NCBI GenBank assembly: GCA_934149305.1
Contig: CAKPEF010000001.1
Location: forward strand, 36,748-100,747
Direction of reading: 5' to 3'
Origin: an uncultured Clostridia bacterium
Lineage (GTDB): Bacteria; Bacillota; Clostridia; TANB77; UBA1234
DNA length: 64,000 bases
The first letter of the stretch is position 1; the number at the start of each line of letters is the position of its first letter. Position numbers and translations under genes: made by a program. Shown piece by piece: positions 9,420 through 60,130 of the stretch. The notes below the pieces were generated by a model. The model saw nothing but the letters and a program-made list of their open reading frames with translations. It searched no databases and was not told the DNA's origin.

Positions 9420-9500
9420 GTTACTATTCGGCCTTAATTTATAACAAATGCTAAACAGTAGTATTTTTATGGAGCACACCTAAGCTTAAGCTACATTTTT
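9420..9500 (+). repeat. Copy of the dispersed palindromic repeat family (partial MITE-like unit)
   Basis: AGTTACTATTCGGCCTTAAT...AGTAGTATTTTTATGGAGCACACCTAAGCTTAAGCTACAT; near-identical to 52151-52230. Confidence 0.6.
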
Positions 9501-9564
9501 ATAGCACACACCCTCATTTGGATATATGCTTTTATTTTGAAGACTGAAAAGTAACATATTTTAA

Positions 9565-10386
9565 CTAGTCGTGTACTATTTTATCTAACATACTAAATAT
9601 AATAAAAATCACTAAATTTGTTAAAACAATTGTTGCACCTGTACTTATTTTATAAGCATATGATATGTATAACCCTATTAAAAACGCTACAATACTAACT
9701 ATTGATGAACTTATTACTACTTTTCTAAATGATTTAAATAGTCTCATAGATGTAAGTGCTGGGAATATTATAATGCTACTTATTAACATTGTTCCCATCA
9801 TTCTCATTCCAACTACAATTACTACCGCAGTTAATATTGCAACTAGGTTTGTATACCATTTTACATTAAGTCCAACTGCCTTTGAGAACTCCTCATCAAA
9901 TGTTATTGCAAACAACTTCCTATAATATATTATAAAAAGTATGCTAACTATTATGCTAACTGCTACGCTTAAAATAACATCAGACTCACTCATTGCAAGG
10001 ATGCTACCAAACATAAAATTACATACATCCGTATTCATACCTGTTGTAAGTGATGTTACTGCTACACCAATAGCAAGTGCCGTACTTGATATAATGGCAA
10101 TTGCACTGTCGGCCTTTATTTTGCTGTTATCTCCTATCTTTAGCAATAAAATAGCGGAAATTATAACTCCAGGTATTGCTACATAAAGTGGTGTTGAAAA
10201 ACCAAGTGCCGCAGCTATGGTTAAAATTCCGAATCCCACATGTGATAACCCATCACCTATCATTGCATATCTTTTTAACACTAAATTTACGCCTAAAAGT
10301 GCCGCGCATAAACTAACAAGTACTCCGACCAACATTGCTCTTCTTATAAATGCAAAGCTTAACATTTCTGAAATTATTGCAACCAT
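9565..10386 (-). CDS. Metal (Zn/Mn) ABC transporter permease, ABC-3 family
   Basis: Eight hydrophobic helices with ABC-3 (ZnuB/MntB-like) sequence character; immediately downstream of the ABC ATPase. Confidence 0.65.
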   Translation of the reverse strand: MVAIISEMLSFAFIRRAMLVGVLVSLCAALLGVNLVLKRYAMIGDGLSHVGFGILTIAAALGFSTPLYVAIPGVIISAILLLKIGDNSKIKADSAIAIISSTALAIGVAVTSLTTGMNTDVCNFMFGSILAMSESDVILSVAVSIIVSILFIIYYRKLFAITFDEEFSKAVGLNVKWYTNLVAILTAVVIVVGMRMMGTMLISSIIIFPALTSMRLFKSFRKVVISSSIVSIVAFLIGLYISYAYKISTGATIVLTNLVIFIIFSMLDKIVHD

Positions 10387-11059
10387 CTATGCTACACCTC
10401 CTGCCTCATAGCCATTTACATTTCCCATATATGTAACTTGTCCATCTCTTATTTCTATTACTCTGTTGCAATATTTTATTGCTCGACTAATGTCGTGTGA
10501 AACCATCACAACAGTAAGCTTTCTCTTTTTATTTAATTTTGCTAACATCTCGTATATTTGAGTAGAAATTATTGGGTCAAGCCCGTTAGTTGGCTCATCT
10601 AATATTATTATTTTTTCTGTAGCACAAATCGCTCTTGCTATCAATACTCTTTGTTGCTGCCCTCCAGATAAATCTCTAAAACATTTTTTTCTAATATCAT
10701 ATATGTCTAGCTCCTTCATAACTTTACTGGCAGTAGCCCTATCACGTTTAGTATACCATATCTTATTTATATTATTAACGATTGTGCCACTTAAAACGAC
10801 TTCTTCTATAGAAGCAGGAAAATTGCTTTGAATTTCTGTTTTTTGTGGCAAATAGCCGATTCTGTGTTCTAGTTTTATCTCTCCAGATTGTAGTTTGTTG
10901 AGACCTAATAAGCACTTTACAAGCGTACTTTTACCGTGAGCCATTCTCGCCAAAGATACATACAAAATCTCCGTCTTCTATATTCAAATTTACATCATGA
11001 AGTGCATTCTTCTTGGCTGGATAACTAAAATTTAAGTCTTTTACCTCTATTAAACTCAT
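10387..11059 (-). pseudogene. Metal ABC transporter ATP-binding protein (ZnuC/MntA-like) broken by a +1 frameshift inside Walker A
   Basis: The upstream frame (ATG 11059) reads MSLIEVKDLNFSYPAKKNALHDVNLNIEDGDFVCIFGENGSR* and the downstream frame continues ...HGKSTLVKCLLG...LSGGQQQR. The coding strand is ggc tca C ggt aaa agt where GENGSGKST needs ggc tca ggt aaa. One inserted C at about 10937. Confidence 0.7.
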
Positions 11060-11240
11060 TGTTTTCATCTCCTCACAAAACCCTACTATACATAATACAA
11101 CATGTTTCGTTTAAAAGCAACATAATTTGTCGGCTAATTGTTTATTTTTTGTATTTATATAATAAAATAATTTTTGATAAATGTTATAAGTAGTTATGGG
11201 GCACGCCTGAGCTTAAGCTACATTTTTTCGCAAAATACAA

Positions 11241-11756
11241 TTATGTTTTATGCATACTTTTAATTTTTTGAGTTTGAATAGTGATATATATTTTCAAGAT
11301 ATCTATTACCCTGATTTTAAATATTAAATTAACATTTGCTTTAAACTCGAACTTGTCATATTGCGGTAAGATTTCGTAAGAAAAATTTTTTATTTTTTTT
11401 AAAGGCAATAGCTTTATGCTATCTATTATAATTGAAGCAACTGGAACAGAAAATACAGTAGGAAACAAGAAAAGAAGCCCAATTTGTGCATTTATACTTA
11501 ATTTTTCAATCTCTATATATTGAAGCATATTTTTAATGTCTTTTAGCTTAATCTTACTTTTCTGGTTTTTATTTGATTTGGTTTTTACAAATTTTCTTTT
11601 TCTCTTTATTAACGCTCCTTTTCTTTTTATTTCAAAAAACCATATTTTCAGCTTCAAATCCATATTTAGTTTATCGGCATTTAAATCTATATAGAATTTA
11701 ATTTTCAAAGAAAACAATATTATAATAATTACAAAAAAAATGATAAAAATCTTCAT
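11241..11756 (-). CDS. DUF2953-like membrane protein (YtfI-like, sporulation-associated)
   Basis: N-terminal TM helix and a K-rich central region; resembles the Firmicutes DUF2953 family from memory. Confidence 0.35.
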   Translation of the reverse strand: MKIFIIFFVIIIILFSLKIKFYIDLNADKLNMDLKLKIWFFEIKRKGALIKRKRKFVKTKSNKNQKSKIKLKDIKNMLQYIEIEKLSINAQIGLLFLFPTVFSVPVASIIIDSIKLLPLKKIKNFSYEILPQYDKFEFKANVNLIFKIRVIDILKIYITIQTQKIKSMHKT

Positions 11757-11784
11757 ACGAATATTTTTACCATTTTTTTCATTA

Positions 11785-58128: not shown

Positions 58129-58635
58129 CTAATTCTTTCTTATCGAAATAAGTGATACACATCCATATTTATCATATGAAATTATTTCTACATTATATTT
58201 CTTTCGTGTTTGTAGGTAATATTTCACATCTTTATATTCCACATATGCATCTCCACCATAACTCTTAAGAGAATCATCTATATTTAATACTATCTCATAT
58301 TGATCTGGAAACTTATTCTCATTATAAGTTTTTACTATCCATACTAATTTTTTAATATCAAAACTACTCACTTCTCCCTCAAATTCTTTCACTTTATCAT
58401 TAACTTCATCAATCTGTTTTGACATTTGCTGTTTCCAGTTATATGGCAACATACCACTTATAGCCGAATTATAATAGTATGTAAATGCAACACCACAAAT
58501 TGCTATTATCAACGCCACAAGAATCACTATAATCATCTTTTTATGGTCACAGACTAATCTTAGAAATTTATTTTTTCTTTCGTTTTTTGTATCATAATCC
58601 GGTTTTTCGTTTTTTTCTACCTTTTCTATCTTCAT
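58129..58635 (-). CDS. Paralog 1: small single-pass membrane protein (conserved cytoplasmic N-terminus plus TM, divergent ~110-aa exported domain)
   Basis: MKIEKVEKNEKPDYDTKNERKNKFLRLVCDHKKMIIVILVALIIAICG; a GGGGGG RBS tract; the GTGAACACAACC motif upstream. Confidence 0.55.
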   Translation of the reverse strand: MKIEKVEKNEKPDYDTKNERKNKFLRLVCDHKKMIIVILVALIIAICGVAFTYYYNSAISGMLPYNWKQQMSKQIDEVNDKVKEFEGEVSSFDIKKLVWIVKTYNENKFPDQYEIVLNIDDSLKSYGGDAYVEYKDVKYYLQTRKKYNVEIISYDKYGCVSLISIRKN

Positions 58636-58687
58636 TTGTATTTTCCCCCTTTTCGGTTGGTTGTGTTCACTAATTGTAATATTTCTT

Positions 58688-59050
58688 ACTTTATTTTAGT
58701 GTAGCACTATCTATTATTTTTTATGGAGCACACTGTGCTCCGCTACATTTTTGCAGTTATTTTACTTATTTTTATAAATTAGTTTATACTGCCTTATGAT
58801 ATTTTTTCAACTTTATTTTAGTGTACCGATAGCAATTACTTTTTATGGAGCACACTGTGCTCCGCTACATGCTTGCAGTTGTTTTATATATTTTTATAAA
58901 TTGTTTTACACTACCTTATAATATTTTTTAACTTTATTTTAGTGCACCGATAGCAATTACTTTTTATGGAGCACACTGTGCTCCGCTACATTTTTGCAGT
59001 TGTTTTACTTATTTTTATAAATTAGTTTATACTGCATAGTAATTTTTTAT
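58688..59050 (+). repeat. Tandem array of three ~120-bp units (family palindrome plus a promoter-like segment)
   Basis: Units begin CTTTATTTTAGTG... and contain TATGGAGCACACTGTGCTCCGCTACATTTTTGCAG; about 85-95% identical to each other. Confidence 0.7.
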
Positions 59051-59111
59051 GAGACTCTCTAAGCTTAAGTCACCTTATTTTTTTCTATTCATTTTTCTTA
59101 GATTTTATATA

Positions 59112-59594
59112 CTAATTTTCTGTTATTGAAATGGATGAAATCTTGCCTGAATCATATGACATAGTTACTTTATATGTTTTAGAATTTAATATAGTATATT
59201 TTTCTCCTTCGTAATATGTTTTACCTTCATCACTCTTAAGCGAATCATCTATGTTTAATATTATAAATACATTATATTCTTTATAAAGCTTTACACGCCT
59301 AATCAAGGTCTTGACATCAACACCGCTCACTTCTCCCTCATATTGTTTCAAAACATCCGTAAATTCATCAATATGTTCTAAGAACTGTTGTTCCCAGTTG
59401 TATGGTGATGAACCACCTATAGTTGGCGTATAACAATATATAACAAGTGCACCACAAATTGCTATTATCAACGCAACAAGAATCACTATAATCATCTTTT
59501 TGTGGTCACAGACTAATCTTAGAAATTTATTTTTTCTTTCGTTTTTTGTATCGTAATCTGGTTCTTCGTTTTTTTCTACCTTTTCTATCTTCAT
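59112..59594 (-). CDS. Paralog 2 of the small membrane protein (first 48 aa identical apart from one E/K substitution; C-terminal domain divergent)
   Basis: MKIEKVEKNEEPDYDTKNERKNKFLRLVCDHKKMIIVILVALIIAICG...; the same upstream motif and a C-tract RBS (GGGGG). Confidence 0.55.
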   Translation of the reverse strand: MKIEKVEKNEEPDYDTKNERKNKFLRLVCDHKKMIIVILVALIIAICGALVIYCYTPTIGGSSPYNWEQQFLEHIDEFTDVLKQYEGEVSGVDVKTLIRRVKLYKEYNVFIILNIDDSLKSDEGKTYYEGEKYTILNSKTYKVTMSYDSGKISSISITEN

Positions 59595-59647
59595 TTGTAT
59601 TTTCCCCCTCTTCGGTTGGTTGTGTTCACTAATTGTAGTATTTCTTA

Positions 59648-60130
59648 CCTTATTTTAGTGTACCGTCAGCAATTACTTTTTATGGAGCACACTGTGCTCC
59701 GCTACATTTTTGCAGTTGTTTTACTTATTTTTATAAATTAGTTTATACTGCCTTATGATATTTTTTCAACTTTATTTTAGTGTACCGCTAGCAATTACTT
59801 TTTATGGAGCACACTGTGCTCCGCTACATTTTTGCAGTTGTTTTATATATTTTATAAATTGTTTTACACTGCCTTACAATATTTTTTTAACTTTATTTTA
59901 GTGCACCGATAGCAATTACTTTTTATGGAGCACGCCTAAGCTTAAGCTACATGCTTGCAGTTGTTTTATATATTTTTATAAATTTTTTATACTGCCTTAT
60001 AATATTTTTTCATCTTTATTTTAGTGTAGCACTATCTATTATTTTTTATGGAGCACGCCTAAGCTTAAGCTACACTTTTTGCAACTGTTTTATATTTTTT
60101 CATAAGTTAATTTATAATGTTAATTTTATT
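59648..60130 (+). repeat. Second tandem array of four ~120-bp units (two with variant A palindrome, two with variant B AAGCTTAAGC)
   Basis: Same unit as 58688-59050; the last two units carry GGAGCACGCCTAAGCTTAAGCTACA. Confidence 0.7.

What the first reader, a model, noticed from the sequence alone, without database searches (positions are those of the whole stretch)
9420..60130. Dispersed palindromic repeat family with two core variants, about 16 copies in 64 kb
The core is TATGGAGCAC + palindrome + CTACAT. Variant A has the perfect 8-bp inverted repeat GGAGCACA-C-TGTGCTCC. Variant B has CCTAAGCTTAAGC (10-bp palindrome AGCTTAAGCT, tandem HindIII sites). Copies are at about 9468, 11195, 13098, 23160(-), 23269(-), 23352, 36708, 36780, 52198, 58721, 58843, 58964, 59683, 59803, 59923 and 60044. 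All are intergenic and often sit at gene 5' ends within longer ~120-bp units that include a promoter-like TTGAAA-16-TATAAA on the opposite strand. A related hairpin ATGGAGCCAC-AAAG-GTGGCTCCAT lies at 44183. This could be a REP/MITE-type family, a protein-binding palindrome, or an RNA stem-loop affecting mRNA stability.
Basis: seen in the sequence. Interest (0 to 1): 0.5.

Follow-up and report, generated by a model that had tools for sequence, protein, structure and literature searches.

The report
Small mobile repeats with hairpin core
The 16 repeats are real and belong to a family of tiny, non-coding transposable elements (MITEs) built around a REP-like 'GTAG + hairpin' core, which have spread through the gene junctions of a group of uncultured gut Clostridia; it is a new example of a known kind of selfish DNA, with a few unusual habits.

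Summary
Sixteen copies of TATGGAGCAC..GCTACAT lie at the stated places, far more than chance gives, and all are intergenic. Read on the gene strand the core is TGTAGC + variable middle + GTGCTCCAT-AAAA.

The core is the centre of larger elements bounded by terminal inverted repeats (TIRs):
- Type 2: about 135 nt, TIR GTTACTATTCAG.
- Type 1: about 95-150 nt, ends GGTAGTGTAAACTA / TAGTGAACACAACC.

Both carry perfect 8-bp target-site duplications, three of them in this window: TAAAATAT, GAGTAGTT and TAAAATAC. Sister species lack copies at the syntenic loci. Other uncultured Clostridia MAGs and human-gut metagenomes carry copies next to unrelated genes. These are therefore MITEs.

The two 'arrays' (3 and 4 units of about 122 nt) are local tandem amplifications of type 1.

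The 'two variants' are really a 2x2 mosaic, and orthologous copies differ in core state while their flanks are identical.

Two unusual habits:
- Type-1 ends lie 20-24 nt from a start codon in 14 of 14 scored copies.
- The core points with the downstream gene in 54 of 59 cases.

No transposase partner was found. A role in expression is inferred, not shown. Verdict: a new member of a known kind, of moderate interest.

The parts
9420..9555 (-). Type-2 MITE (136 nt). TIRs are GTTACTTTTCAGTCTT / AAGGCCGAATAGTAAC. Core B lies at 9469-9495. Perfect 8-bp TSD TAAAATAT at 9412-9419 and 9556-9563. It sits 2 nt after the stop codon of the ABC-3 permease gene and upstream of that operon's terminator and of the ECF sigma gene.
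   Evidence: RNA fold -35.2 kcal/mol, z -3.6
11175..11286 (-). Degenerate type-2 element. The left TIR ATCACTATTCAAAC is kept and the right end has decayed. The core is B-like at 11196-11222 (TGTAGCTTAAGCTCAGGCGTGCCCCAT).
   Evidence: nhmmer E 2.4e-7
13080..13173 (-). Short type-1 MITE (94 nt). Left end GGTAGTGTAAACTAGT, right end CTGTGAACACAACC. Core B' lies at 13099-13125. Perfect 8-bp TSD TAAAATAC at 13072-13079 and 13174-13181. The left TSD copy contains the stop codon of the upstream gene, and the right copy lies a few nt upstream of the Shine-Dalgarno (SD) sequence of the DUF4825 gene.
14357..14452 (-). Type-1-like frame without a recognisable core (GGAGTGTAAATTAAC...ATTAGTGAACACACC), upstream of the 384-aa gene. 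No TSD.
23139..23211 (+). Type-1-like fragment with core B' at 23151-23177, in the divergent SBP / DUF4015 intergenic region.
23268..23350 (+). Type-1-like fragment with core A at 23270-23294.
23339..23470 (-). Type-2-like left half with core A (loop AGC) at 23352-23376. It is inverted relative to the two copies to its left.
36705..36842 (-). Two-unit degenerate type-1 cluster with 72-nt spacing. Cores lie at 36709-36735 (B') and 36781-36807 (TATAGCTTAAGATTGAGT...). The proximal core ends 20 nt from the UDPGP start codon.
45205..45262 (-). Left part of a type-1 frame with no core (GGTGGAGTAAACTAATTTATGAAAAG...), upstream of the 315-aa gene.
52151..52284 (-). Type-2 MITE (134 nt). TIRs are GTTACTATTCAGGC / GGCTGAATAGTAAC. 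Core A lies at 52200-52224. Perfect 8-bp TSD GAGTAGTT at 52143-52150 and 52285-52292, and the TSD includes the yunB stop codon. The element lies upstream of the TTGACA-17-TAAAAT promoter-like site of the 3D-domain gene.
   Evidence: (D10); fold -41 kcal/mol, z -4.2
58654..59036 (-). Array 1: three head-to-tail type-1 units (about 122 nt) with A cores at 58723-58747, 58845-58869 and 58966-58990. Only the gene-proximal unit keeps the right TIR (TAGTGAACACAACC), which ends 23 nt from the ATG of the 168-aa gene.
59049..59073 (-). Decayed B-type core remnant (GTGACTTAAGCTTAGAGAGTCTCAT) at the distal edge of array 1.
   Evidence: read directly
59613..60119 (-). Array 2: four head-to-tail type-1 units. 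Cores are A at 59682-59706, A at 59804-59828, B at 59925-59951 and B at 60048-60074. The right TIR ends 23 nt from the ATG of the paralogous 160-aa gene.
47660..47880 (.). Coreless relative (221 nt) with 21-nt TIRs ATTACTATTCAAACTTATATA, of the same TIR family as type 2. It is 95% identical to copies in MAGs of other species (L005:536-754, L019:1678-1899).
44183..44206 (.). Perfect 10-bp hairpin ATGGAGCCAC-CTTT-GTGGCTCCAT just after the stop codon of the 315-aa gene. It shares the ATGGAGC / GCTCCAT arms but has no GTAG head. Membership of the family is doubtful.

Best explanation
The repeats are a family of non-autonomous transposable elements (MITEs) that share a REP-like core.

On the gene strand the core reads T-GTAG-C, then a variable middle, then GTGCTCC-AT-AAAA. 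In its A state it folds into a 7-bp G+C-rich stem with a 3-nt loop.

The core is carried in the middle of at least two kinds of element bounded by terminal inverted repeats. Type 1 has ends GGTAGTGTAAACTA...TAGTGAACACAACC. Type 2 has ends GTTACTATTCAG...CTGAATAGTAAC.

Shown here:
- The elements were inserted by a transposase that makes staggered cuts 8 bp apart. They are flanked by perfect 8-bp duplications of A+T-rich target DNA at gene junctions, often re-creating the neighbour's stop codon.
- They are present in this species and absent from the same intergenic regions of sister species.
- Copies sit next to unrelated genes in several related uncultured gut Clostridia.
- The 3- and 4-unit arrays are local head-to-tail amplifications of the inner part of a type-1 element, because only the last unit keeps the right end.

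Inferred:
- The mobilising enzyme is a DDE-type transposase supplied in trans by an IS that was not found here.
- Copies survive almost only in the orientation of the downstream gene. For type 1 they end 20-24 nt before its start codon. Either the transposase targets the A+T-rich 8-mer just upstream of a ribosome-binding site, or only such insertions are tolerated or useful.
- In that position the element is transcribed as part of the leader or the inter-cistronic RNA. The hairpin, and the -10-like TATAAT at the right end of long forms, then modulate mRNA stability or expression.
- The core's four states arise by exchange between copies (gene conversion, or recombination between inverted copies).
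For: Repeat family and its statistics.

TIRs and TSDs:
- Type 2 has perfect 8/8 duplications in 6 of 12 distinct elements, plus one at 7/8.
- Type 1 has 8/8 in 3 elements, plus one at 7/8 and one at 6/8.
- The chance of an 8/8 match in this A+T-rich DNA is about 5e-5 per element (my estimate from base composition).
- The window itself has three perfect TSDs, at 9420-9555, 13080-13173 and 52151-52284.

Distribution:
- Loci of other species share only the elements with the window (78-87% identity) and not the flanking genes.
- Exact-core scans give 15 genome loci in uncultured Clostridia MAGs (two of them evident chance matches, one in a Verrucomicrobiia MAG) and 39 mainly human-gut metagenome loci, many at contig ends.
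- Sister species with an ABC-3 permease 86-88% identical have no core in 12-13 kb of syntenic DNA where the window has three.

Arrays and modules:
- Only the terminal unit of each array keeps the right TIR.
- Alignment of short, long and coreless type-1 forms shows a modular structure.

Position and orientation:
- 0 of 67 cores lie inside ORFs.
- The downstream gene is on the same strand in 54 of 59 cases.
- Seven cores lie in divergent contexts and none in convergent ones.
- The type-1 end lies 20-24 nt from the start codon in 14 of 14 scored copies.

Other:
- The A hairpin folds at -10.1 kcal/mol.
- No Rfam family matches.
Against: - The mobilising enzyme is therefore hypothetical.
- Six strains of the same species (99.4-100% identical) all have the three copies in the region they share with the window (window 1-20386; two of the contigs reach only two of the three). 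There is no sign of recent movement there.
- About half of the elements have decayed or absent TSDs.
- The same core occurs in at least three unrelated frames and 'naked' in a Lachnospiraceae MAG (L018). A purely passenger role does not explain this.
- The very tight spacing to start codons and the gene-strand orientation would also suit a functional leader RNA.
- No transcription data were available.
Confidence: 0.78

Rival explanations
1. The core itself is a canonical REP: a GTAG-tagged stem-loop mobilised as single-stranded DNA by a REP-associated tyrosine transposase (RAYT / TnpA-REP). It entered the MITE frames secondarily. This is compatible with the frames being MITEs; it concerns how the core spreads.
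For: - The core has the defining anatomy: a 5' GTAG at the foot of a 7-bp stem with a 3-nt loop (definitions in PMC3733652 and PMC6006769).
- TGTAGC is kept in 14 of the 16 window copies; the exceptions are TATAGC at 36781 and CGTAGC at 23270.
- The same core occurs in at least three different frames (type 1, type 2, and type 3 in L032/L069) and without any frame.
- L018 (a Lachnospiraceae MAG) has a BIME-like cluster of alternating GTAGCGGAGCAC..GTGCTCCAT and GTAGCGGCGAAC..GTTCGCCAT hairpins. These differ by two compensatory changes in the stem.
- Coreless type-1 frames exist.
Against: - No Y1/HUH transposase was seen, and its presence could not be tested.
- Copies here are head-to-tail or single, not the inverted doublets typical of REPINs and BIMEs. 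Only one inverted pair exists in the window.
- The abundant B state has no stable hairpin (z -0.7).
- Copies lie upstream of genes and never in convergent gaps, the reverse of the usual REP placement (PMC3733652).
- The GTAG-REP survey makes no mention of Firmicutes or Clostridia.
Confidence: 0.25
2. The units are a conserved cis-regulatory leader RNA or small RNA genes (riboswitch-like, or tandem sRNAs). They would be repeated because many genes belong to one regulon, not because the DNA is mobile.
For: - The orientation is the same as the downstream gene in 54 of 59 cases.
- The distance to the start codon is fixed.
- Whole elements fold better than shuffles, with z from -3.2 to -5.8.
- The TIR stems of several type-2 copies, and one core (L015: GGAGTAT / GTGCTCC), keep pairing through G-U on the gene strand.
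Against: - Perfect 8-bp target duplications flank the units.
- Downstream genes are unrelated: BlaI-like repressor, aminopeptidase, pheS, NUDIX, ECF sigma, UDPGP and others.
- Sister species lack the element at orthologous genes.
- Type-2 copies lie upstream of the promoter-like sites of the next gene.
- Orthologous copies differ in whether the central hairpin can form at all.
- There is no Rfam match even at E = 1.
- TIR complementarity alone explains the good folding.
Confidence: 0.07
3. The palindrome is an operator for a dimeric DNA-binding regulator. The copies would mark a regulon.
For: - It has a palindromic core upstream of genes.
- Both A and B contain a perfect palindrome (GGAGCAC..GTGCTCC, AGCTTAAGCT).
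Against: - The two palindromes are different sequences.
- The outer half-sites ATGTAGC / GCTCCAT are 12 or 14 nt apart, depending on the variant.
- Up to four copies occur in tandem at 122-nt spacing.
- Copies are inside TSD-flanked elements and are not conserved at orthologous promoters of sister species.
- Tests against cre, CIRCE and sigma-54 consensus sequences recalled from memory failed on spacing or orientation.
Confidence: 0.04
4. The hairpins are intrinsic transcription terminators, or insulators against antisense transcription.
For: The consensus scan flags four A cores on the + strand as terminator-like (stem TGGAGCAC..GTGCTCCG with tail CTACATTTTT). In total it finds 5 sites, against 0.4 expected.
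Against: - That strand is antisense to almost all genes here.
- The T-run starts 6 nt after the stem.
- On the gene strand the hairpin is followed by A-runs.
- B cores have no hairpin.
- Genuine terminators sit elsewhere: the rpoC terminator at 60229-60195, and a hairpin plus T-run just after the 9420-9555 element.
Confidence: 0.05

Closest known systems
Bacterial MITEs that carry regulatory signals, e.g. Neisseria Correia elements (CREE) and Yersinia/enterobacterial ERIC (as summarised in PMC3488235 and from my own knowledge)
   Same: - Small (about 95-220 nt) and non-coding.
- Terminal inverted repeats and target-site duplications.
- Many copies in intergenic DNA.
- The whole element can fold into a long hairpin when transcribed.
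- -10-like boxes lie near an end.
   Different: - The TSD is 8 bp of A+T-rich DNA (Correia: TA).
- Two or more TIR families share one internal G+C-rich GTAG hairpin.
- Type 1 lies at a fixed 20-24 nt from start codons.
- Head-to-tail arrays occur.
- The host is an uncultured low-G+C Clostridia lineage.
- Promoter or RNase processing activity is not shown here.
GTAG-tagged REP elements and BIMEs with their RAYT transposases (PMC3733652, PMC2817692, PMC6006769)
   Same: - A GTAG head one base before a 7-bp G+C-rich stem with a 3-nt loop.
- Extragenic.
- Sub-families with compensatory stem changes (L018).
- Clusters that include flanking DNA repeated in tandem.
   Different: - No RAYT was found and it was not testable.
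- Arrangement is mostly head-to-tail or single rather than inverted pairs.
- Copies lie upstream of genes rather than downstream or in convergent gaps.
- The common B state is not a hairpin.
- The cores sit inside TIR/TSD-bounded elements, which REPs are not.
BOX elements of Streptococcus pneumoniae (own knowledge)
   Same: - A modular mosaic repeat of a low-G+C Gram-positive.
- An internal module is repeated in tandem a variable number of times.
- It lies in leaders close to gene starts and is predicted to form stable RNA structure.
   Different: - No sequence similarity.
- BOX has no clear TSD and no GTAG hairpin.
Putative mobile promoters (PMC3488235)
   Same: Near-identical non-coding stretches immediately upstream of non-homologous genes within one genome. 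MITE-like carriage was proposed as one mechanism. Clostridium was among the genera with the most families.
   Different: That class is defined only by similarity. Here the transposon signatures (TIR, TSD) are demonstrated, but promoter activity is not.
IS6/IS26-family insertion sequences (PMC6807381)
   Same: - 8-bp TSD.
- The type-1 end GGTTGTGTTCACTA matches the family TIR consensus GGTTCTGTTGCAAA at 9 of 14 positions, including the three near-invariant bases G1, G2 and G7.
   Different: This is only a lead. No IS6-type transposase was found. The match is weak beyond position 9. Type-2 ends (GTTACTATTCAG) do not fit.

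Membership tests
[quoted passage not shown] | Short (<~500 bp), no coding capacity | tested here: met
   Elements are 76-221 nt and contain no consistent ORF. The tiny ORFs starting at the conserved ATGAAAA differ in frame and length between copies (read).
[quoted passage not shown] | Terminal inverted repeats | tested here: met
   - Type 2: 12-16 bp, GTTACTATTCAG(NC) / (GN)CTGAATAGTAAC.
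- Type 1: GGTAGTGTAAACTA versus the reverse complement GGTTGTGTTCACTA, 11 of 14 matching.

[quoted passage not shown] | Direct target-site duplications of fixed length at the element boundaries | tested here: met
   - Type 2: 8-bp TSDs perfect in 6 of 12 elements, plus one at 7/8.
- Type 1: perfect in 3 of about 12, plus one at 7/8 and one at 6/8.
- The rest are decayed.

[quoted passage not shown] | Multiple dispersed copies; presence/absence between related genomes | tested here: met
   - 16 cores in 64 kb.
- Copies in about 8 MAGs and 39 metagenome contigs.
- Absent at syntenic loci of sister species.
- Not polymorphic among six strains of the same species.
[quoted passage not shown] | A related autonomous IS with the same ends in the same or related genomes | tested here: inconclusive
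   No TIR pair 300-4000 bp apart enclosing a transposase was found in any held locus. Whole genomes could not be searched.
REP / RAYT system | 5' GT[AG]G at the foot of a short stem-loop | tested here: met
   TGTAGC + GGAGCAC-AGT-GTGCTCC folds at -10.1 kcal/mol. This holds fully for state A only. States C and D keep a 5-bp stem. State B has no stable hairpin (z -0.7).
REP / RAYT system | Single-copy RAYT (Y1/HUH transposase) gene flanked by the same REPs | not testable with these tools
No such gene was noticed in the window or the fetched loci, but most of their ORFs were not scanned against protein families.
REP / RAYT system | Typical arrangement as inverted doublets / BIMEs, mostly downstream of genes or between convergent genes | tested here: not met
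   In this lineage copies are single or head-to-tail. Seven lie in divergent contexts and none in convergent ones, and 54 of 59 point with the downstream gene. An alternating cluster is seen only in L018.
Cis-regulatory RNA family (riboswitch / leader) | Conserved structure tied to a functionally coherent set of downstream genes and conserved at orthologous loci | tested here: not met
   - Downstream genes are unrelated.
- The element is absent from orthologous loci of sister species.
- The hairpin is not conserved between orthologs L005 and L019.
- There is no Rfam hit.
Intrinsic terminator | G+C-rich hairpin immediately followed by a U-tract on the transcribed strand | tested here: not met
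   On the gene strand the hairpin is followed by AUAAAAA. On the opposite strand the T-run starts 6 nt after the stem.

The most novel reading that the evidence does not exclude
Type-1 elements may be portable 5' leaders that are actively targeted to the 8 bp just upstream of a ribosome-binding site, in the orientation of the gene.

Their core may act as a heritable expression switch. Its 3' arm GUGCUCC is invariant. The 5' modules are exchanged between copies (GGAGC/TTAAGC x ACAGT/TTAGGT), which turns a strong hairpin on or off at a given gene faster than the flanks mutate.

The arrays upstream of the paralogous 160/168-aa membrane-protein genes would then be copy-number-variable tuning knobs.
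Probability: 0.15. Interest if true: 0.7.

Novelty: new member of a known kind. Interest (0 to 1): 0.4.

Why it matters
- It gives a concrete, sequence-defined repeat family for a poorly known group of human-gut Clostridia. This helps with strain typing, and with understanding why their metagenome assemblies break or collapse: many hits lie at contig ends, and one contig lacks a whole gene-plus-array copy.
- It shows GTAG-headed REP-like hairpins in low-G+C Firmicutes. Published surveys place such repeats mainly in Proteobacteria.
- If the fixed position next to ribosome-binding sites and the switching core states affect expression, the family would be a natural system for spreading and tuning 5' leaders across unrelated genes.
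- As it stands, it is mostly a well-documented case of ordinary selfish DNA.

Tried and rejected
1. Sigma-54 promoter. In variant A the TGG and TGC are 12 nt apart, as in TGGCAC-N5-TTGC. In variant B the spacing is 13, and the motif points away from the genes. Rejected by reading the sequence.
2. Leader peptide or small ORF.
   - The conserved GGTGGAG...ATGAAAA of type 1 looks like an SD plus a start codon. However, the ORFs differ in frame and length between copies (13 aa, 3 aa, 20 aa, read-through). Rejected.
   - The + strand ORF MEHTVLRYIFAVVLLIFIN in A units has no SD and is cut to 4 aa in B units. Rejected.
3. Sequestration of the SD by the free CUCC of B cores. Folds of the ortholog pair L005 (A) and L019 (B), and of four other leaders, show no consistent SD pairing. 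Not supported.
4. Known RNA families. Rfam at gathering score finds only 6S RNA and tRNA-Leu. At E <= 1 on the arrays it finds only two chance-level sRNA hits inside the coding region.
5. Similar DNA in annotated plasmids, which might have revealed a parent IS. No match for a type-1 unit or for the 221-nt element.
6. Parent IS among the held loci. No long TIR pair enclosing a transposase was found. The candidate pair in L013 turned out to be two separate MITEs.
7. Nested insertion as the origin of the arrays. Rejected because only one right TIR is present per array.
8. Literature on REP/RAYT in Firmicutes or Clostridia. No mention in the three REP papers searched. One full-text search was swamped by irrelevant hits.
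9. Within-species polymorphism. Six strains are identical in copy content at the loci they cover.

Full report

Yes. TATGGAGCAC with up to 1 mismatch occurs 19 times, against 2.3 +/- 1.5 in shuffles. The repeat finder groups them into the same families and shows longer shared flanks. Tandem Repeats Finder confirms two arrays: 58677-59028 (period 122, 2.9 copies) and 59650-60116 (period 123, 3.8 copies). The window is 29% G+C and almost all its genes are on the - strand. No copy lies inside a gene. The ORF that seems to cover the 13099 copy is an over-long call, because the same gene is called from window 13056 on identical contigs.

**2. Orientation and anatomy of the core**

Read on the strand of the neighbouring genes ('unit orientation'), the core is A-rich flank, T-GTAG-C, variable middle, GTGCTCC-AT, AAAA.
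- State A (GGAGCAC-AGT-GTGCTCC) folds into a 7-bp stem with a 3-nt loop at -10.1 kcal/mol.
- State B (TTAAGCTTAGG[C/T]) has no hairpin better than shuffles, with z -0.7.

**3. The core is the centre of larger, bounded elements**

Two frames recur.
- Type 2 is about 135 nt, with terminal inverted repeats GTTACTATTCAG(NC)...(GN)CTGAATAGTAAC.
- Type 1 begins GGTAGTGTAAACTAATTTATGAAAA and ends (TATAAT)TAGTGAACACAACC, whose reverse complement GGTTGTGTTCACTA mirrors the left end. It comes in short (about 95 nt) and long (about 130-150 nt) forms. The long form has an extra module, AATTGCTAGCAGTACACTAAAATAAAG.

Both frames are flanked by direct duplications of exactly 8 bp. In the window these are:
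- TAAAATAT around 9420-9555.
- GAGTAGTT around 52151-52284.
- TAAAATAC around 13080-13173.

Across all non-redundant elements fetched:
- Type 2 has perfect 8/8 duplications in 6 of 12, plus one at 7/8.
- Type 1 has 8/8 in 3, plus one at 7/8 and one at 6/8.

In DNA of this composition an 8/8 match at a fixed boundary is expected about 5e-5 of the time (my estimate), so this is the signature of transposition with an 8-bp staggered cut. In two window cases the duplicated 8-mer contains the stop codon of the upstream gene. The insertion therefore left both neighbours intact.

Coreless relatives with the same TIR family also exist: the 221-nt element at 47660-47880, which is 95% identical to copies in other species, L006:4083-4222, and a 48-nt TIR-TIR palindrome in L028.

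An nhmmer census assigns every one of the 16 cores to a type-1 or type-2 frame or to a decayed piece of one. It also finds two coreless type-1 frames, at 14357-14452 and 45205-45262.

**4. Distribution**

The window comes from an uncultured human-gut Clostridia bacterium. Identical or 99.4%-identical contigs occur in several gut metagenomes and in assembly GCA_964308935.1.

An exact scan for ATGTAGC-N10-12-GTGCTCCATAAAA found:
- 15 loci in one genome per species, of which two are evident chance matches (a Verrucomicrobiia MAG and a coding-region hit). The rest are in uncultured Clostridia, Eubacteriales and Lachnospiraceae MAGs.
- 39 loci in metagenome contigs, mostly human gut. Many lie at contig ends, as expected for repeats that break assemblies.

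These loci share only the elements with the window (78-87% identity) and not the genes.

Sister species whose ABC-3 permease is 86-88% identical keep the gene order permease - ECF sigma - beta-propeller. They have no core anywhere in 12-13 kb, where the window has three. The permease-sigma spacer of L026 runs from the stop codon to a terminator without the element.

Six strains of the window's own species all carry the copies within the region they cover, so there is no evidence of very recent movement.

**5. The arrays**

Each of the 3 and 4 units contains the left TIR, the spacer, the core and the internal module. Only the gene-proximal unit ends in the right TIR. The arrays are therefore local head-to-tail amplifications, not nested insertions.

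They sit upstream of two paralogous 160/168-aa membrane-anchored proteins with no Pfam match, between rpoC and uvrA. The gene-plus-array block is itself duplicated (families D3 and D11).

One otherwise identical contig (L001) has only one gene copy, and another (L061) has a single unit. These are either real copy-number alleles or assembly collapse.

A strong promoter-like site (TTGACA-17-TAAAAT, 60156-60128) lies just upstream of array 2 and after the rpoC terminator. Array 2 is therefore probably a long 5' leader.

**6. Position and orientation**

Among 67 non-redundant cores:
- None is inside an ORF.
- The downstream gene is on the same strand in 54 of 59 informative cases.
- Where the two neighbours differ in strand, the context is always divergent (7) and never convergent (0).

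For core-bearing type-1 elements the right end lies 5-11 nt from the SD and 20-24 nt from the start codon in 14 of 14 scored cases. The downstream genes are unrelated, for example a BlaI-like repressor, an aminopeptidase, pheS and a NUDIX protein.

Type-2 copies instead sit just after stop codons and upstream of the next promoter-like site.

The tight type-1 spacing is the most unusual feature. It could reflect target choice (the A+T-rich 8-mer just before an SD), the lack of any other tolerated site in short operon junctions, or selection for a leader function. I cannot separate these.

**7. The 'two variants' are a 2x2 mosaic**

The middle of the core consists of module 1 (GGAGC or TTAAGC) followed by module 2 (AC-AGT or TTAGGT/TTAAGT).

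All four combinations occur. Among 70 hits there are 25 A, 18 B, 7 C and 6 D, with rare intermediates such as GTAAGC and GGAAGC.

Orthologous copies with identical flanks differ in state:
- L005 (A) vs L019 (B), across 270 aligned nt that are otherwise about 95% identical, and identical for about 100 nt on either side of the core.
- L007 (B) vs L062 (C).
- Window 23352 (A) vs L068 (C).

The state therefore changes by block replacement, faster than point mutation of the flanks. This points to exchange between copies.

L068 also has the 23149-23376 segment inverted relative to the SBP gene, with the junction inside a core. This is either recombination between inverted cores or a chimeric contig. 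The switching remains unexplained in mechanism.

**8. What it is and how it works**

The best-supported reading is a mosaic family of MITEs that carry a REP-like core.

Shown:
- TIRs.
- 8-bp TSDs.
- Dispersal next to unrelated genes.
- Absence in sister species.
- Tandem amplification.

Inferred:
- Mobilisation in trans by a DDE transposase. The type-1 end resembles the IS6/IS26 consensus GGTTCTGTTGCAAA at 9 of 14 positions, including G1, G2 and G7, and that family also makes 8-bp TSDs (PMC6807381). This is only a lead.
- Transcription as part of leaders or inter-cistronic RNA.
- Some effect of the hairpin, and of the TATAAT at the right end, on expression.

Rivals:
- The REP/RAYT reading of the core is the serious one. 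The GTAG-plus-stem anatomy fits the published definition (PMC3733652, PMC6006769). The core occurs in several frames and 'naked'. A Lachnospiraceae MAG (L018) shows an alternating, BIME-like cluster with a second hairpin type that differs by two compensatory stem changes. Against it, no RAYT could be looked for, the arrangement and placement are atypical, and state B is not a hairpin.
- Regulatory-RNA, operator and terminator readings are each contradicted by tested features: TSDs, unrelated genes, absence at orthologous loci, non-conserved hairpin, wrong strand or spacing, and no Rfam match.

**9. Novelty**

MITEs and REPs are well known, and 'mobile promoter' families upstream of unrelated genes have been catalogued, with many in Clostridium (PMC3488235). 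This family is not in Rfam or in the plasmid collection searched. GTAG-tagged hairpins were not reported for Firmicutes in the survey I could read.

I class it as a new member of a known kind. Three features are worth noting: a shared core across TIR families, the fixed spacing to start codons, and the switching mosaic core.

**10. Caveats**
- Much of the comparative DNA comes from short-read metagenome assemblies, in which repeats can collapse or mis-join.
- Copy number per genome is unknown.
- There are no expression data.
- The transposase is unidentified.

Noticed in passing
window 24883-25083 (-): 6S RNA (SsrS) gene, Rfam RF00013, 85.9 bits. It lies downstream of the DUF4015 glycosyl-hydrolase-like gene.
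   Followed up: no
window 47660-47880; L005:536-754; L019:1678-1899: A 221-nt element with perfect 21-nt TIRs (ATTACTATTCAAACTTATATA) and no GTAG core. It is 95% identical between this window and MAGs of other species whose genes do not align at the DNA level. It is probably a recently spread MITE of the same TIR family as type 2. Its flanks share GAAA rather than an 8-bp TSD.
   Followed up: partly
window 58129-59061 vs 59112-60119; L001; L061: The 160/168-aa gene together with its upstream array is tandemly duplicated (about 959-nt period). The coding parts are 79% identical, but the first ~30 nt of the genes are 100% identical. An otherwise identical contig (L001) has one copy only, and L061 has a one-unit array. 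These are either copy-number alleles or assembly collapse.
   Followed up: partly
window 60124-60156 (-): Upstream of array 2, the sequence ACAAATGAAGATATAATTTG... is 80% identical to the first 30 nt of the two paralogous genes (MKI...). It overlaps the best promoter-like site of the region (TTGACA-17-TAAAAT). It looks like a remnant of a third gene start left by the duplication.
   Followed up: no
L068 (1091 nt) vs window 22897-23376: In a 97%-identical metagenome contig, the three-core segment 23149-23376 is inverted relative to the SBP-gene flank. The far flank is a different gene (a 173-aa ORF) followed by a type-2 left half. The junction lies inside a core, which has become a hybrid (state C). 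This is either recombination between inverted cores or a chimeric contig.
   Followed up: partly
L018:2020-2165 (uncultured Lachnospiraceae MAG, ~40% G+C): A BIME-like cluster. Two GTAGCGGAGCAC-NNN-GTGCTCCAT hairpins alternate, in opposite orientation, with two GTAGCGGCGAAC-ATT-GTTCGCCAT hairpins. There are no TIR frames. The two hairpin types differ by two compensatory stem changes.
   Followed up: partly
L032 and L069:1588-1800: A third frame type. It consists of 91-100-nt head-to-tail units (..ACAATTAGTAATAGTGGCACACAAAA-core-AAAAGTATGTCGGCACC...), up to three in a row, directly upstream of a gene.
   Followed up: no
L013:3756-4862: Two type-2 elements in opposite orientation bracket a 167-aa ORF. 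From memory, its sequence (..YFAPLSSPK..) resembles ToxN/AbiQ-type toxins. This was not checked against Pfam.
   Followed up: no
window ~10975-11010 (-); L027:~880-900; L028:~4800-4815: TTGTATTATGTATAGTAG is conserved just upstream of the metal (zinc-type) ABC transporter operon in this species and in its sister species. It is possibly a -10 region overlapped by a metalloregulator box.
   Followed up: no
window 44183-44206: A perfect 10-bp hairpin, ATGGAGCCAC-CTTT-GTGGCTCCAT, lies directly after a stop codon and about 160 nt upstream of tRNA-Leu(TAA) at 43937-44024. It has no T-run and no GTAG head. It shares only the ATGGAGC / GCTCCAT arms with the family.
   Followed up: partly
window 58723-58790 and the other A units (+ strand): In the antisense direction each A unit has an ORF, ATGGAGCAC...TAG, encoding MEHTVLRYIFAVVLLIFIN (19 aa, hydrophobic). 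It has no SD and is cut to 4 codons in B units. It is judged spurious.
   Followed up: yes
window 11241-11290: The left TIR remnant of the degenerate type-2 element overlaps the 3' end of the 171-aa ORF. The length of that protein varies between strains and relatives (165, 171, 172, 180 aa), so the insertion probably remodelled its C-terminus.
   Followed up: no
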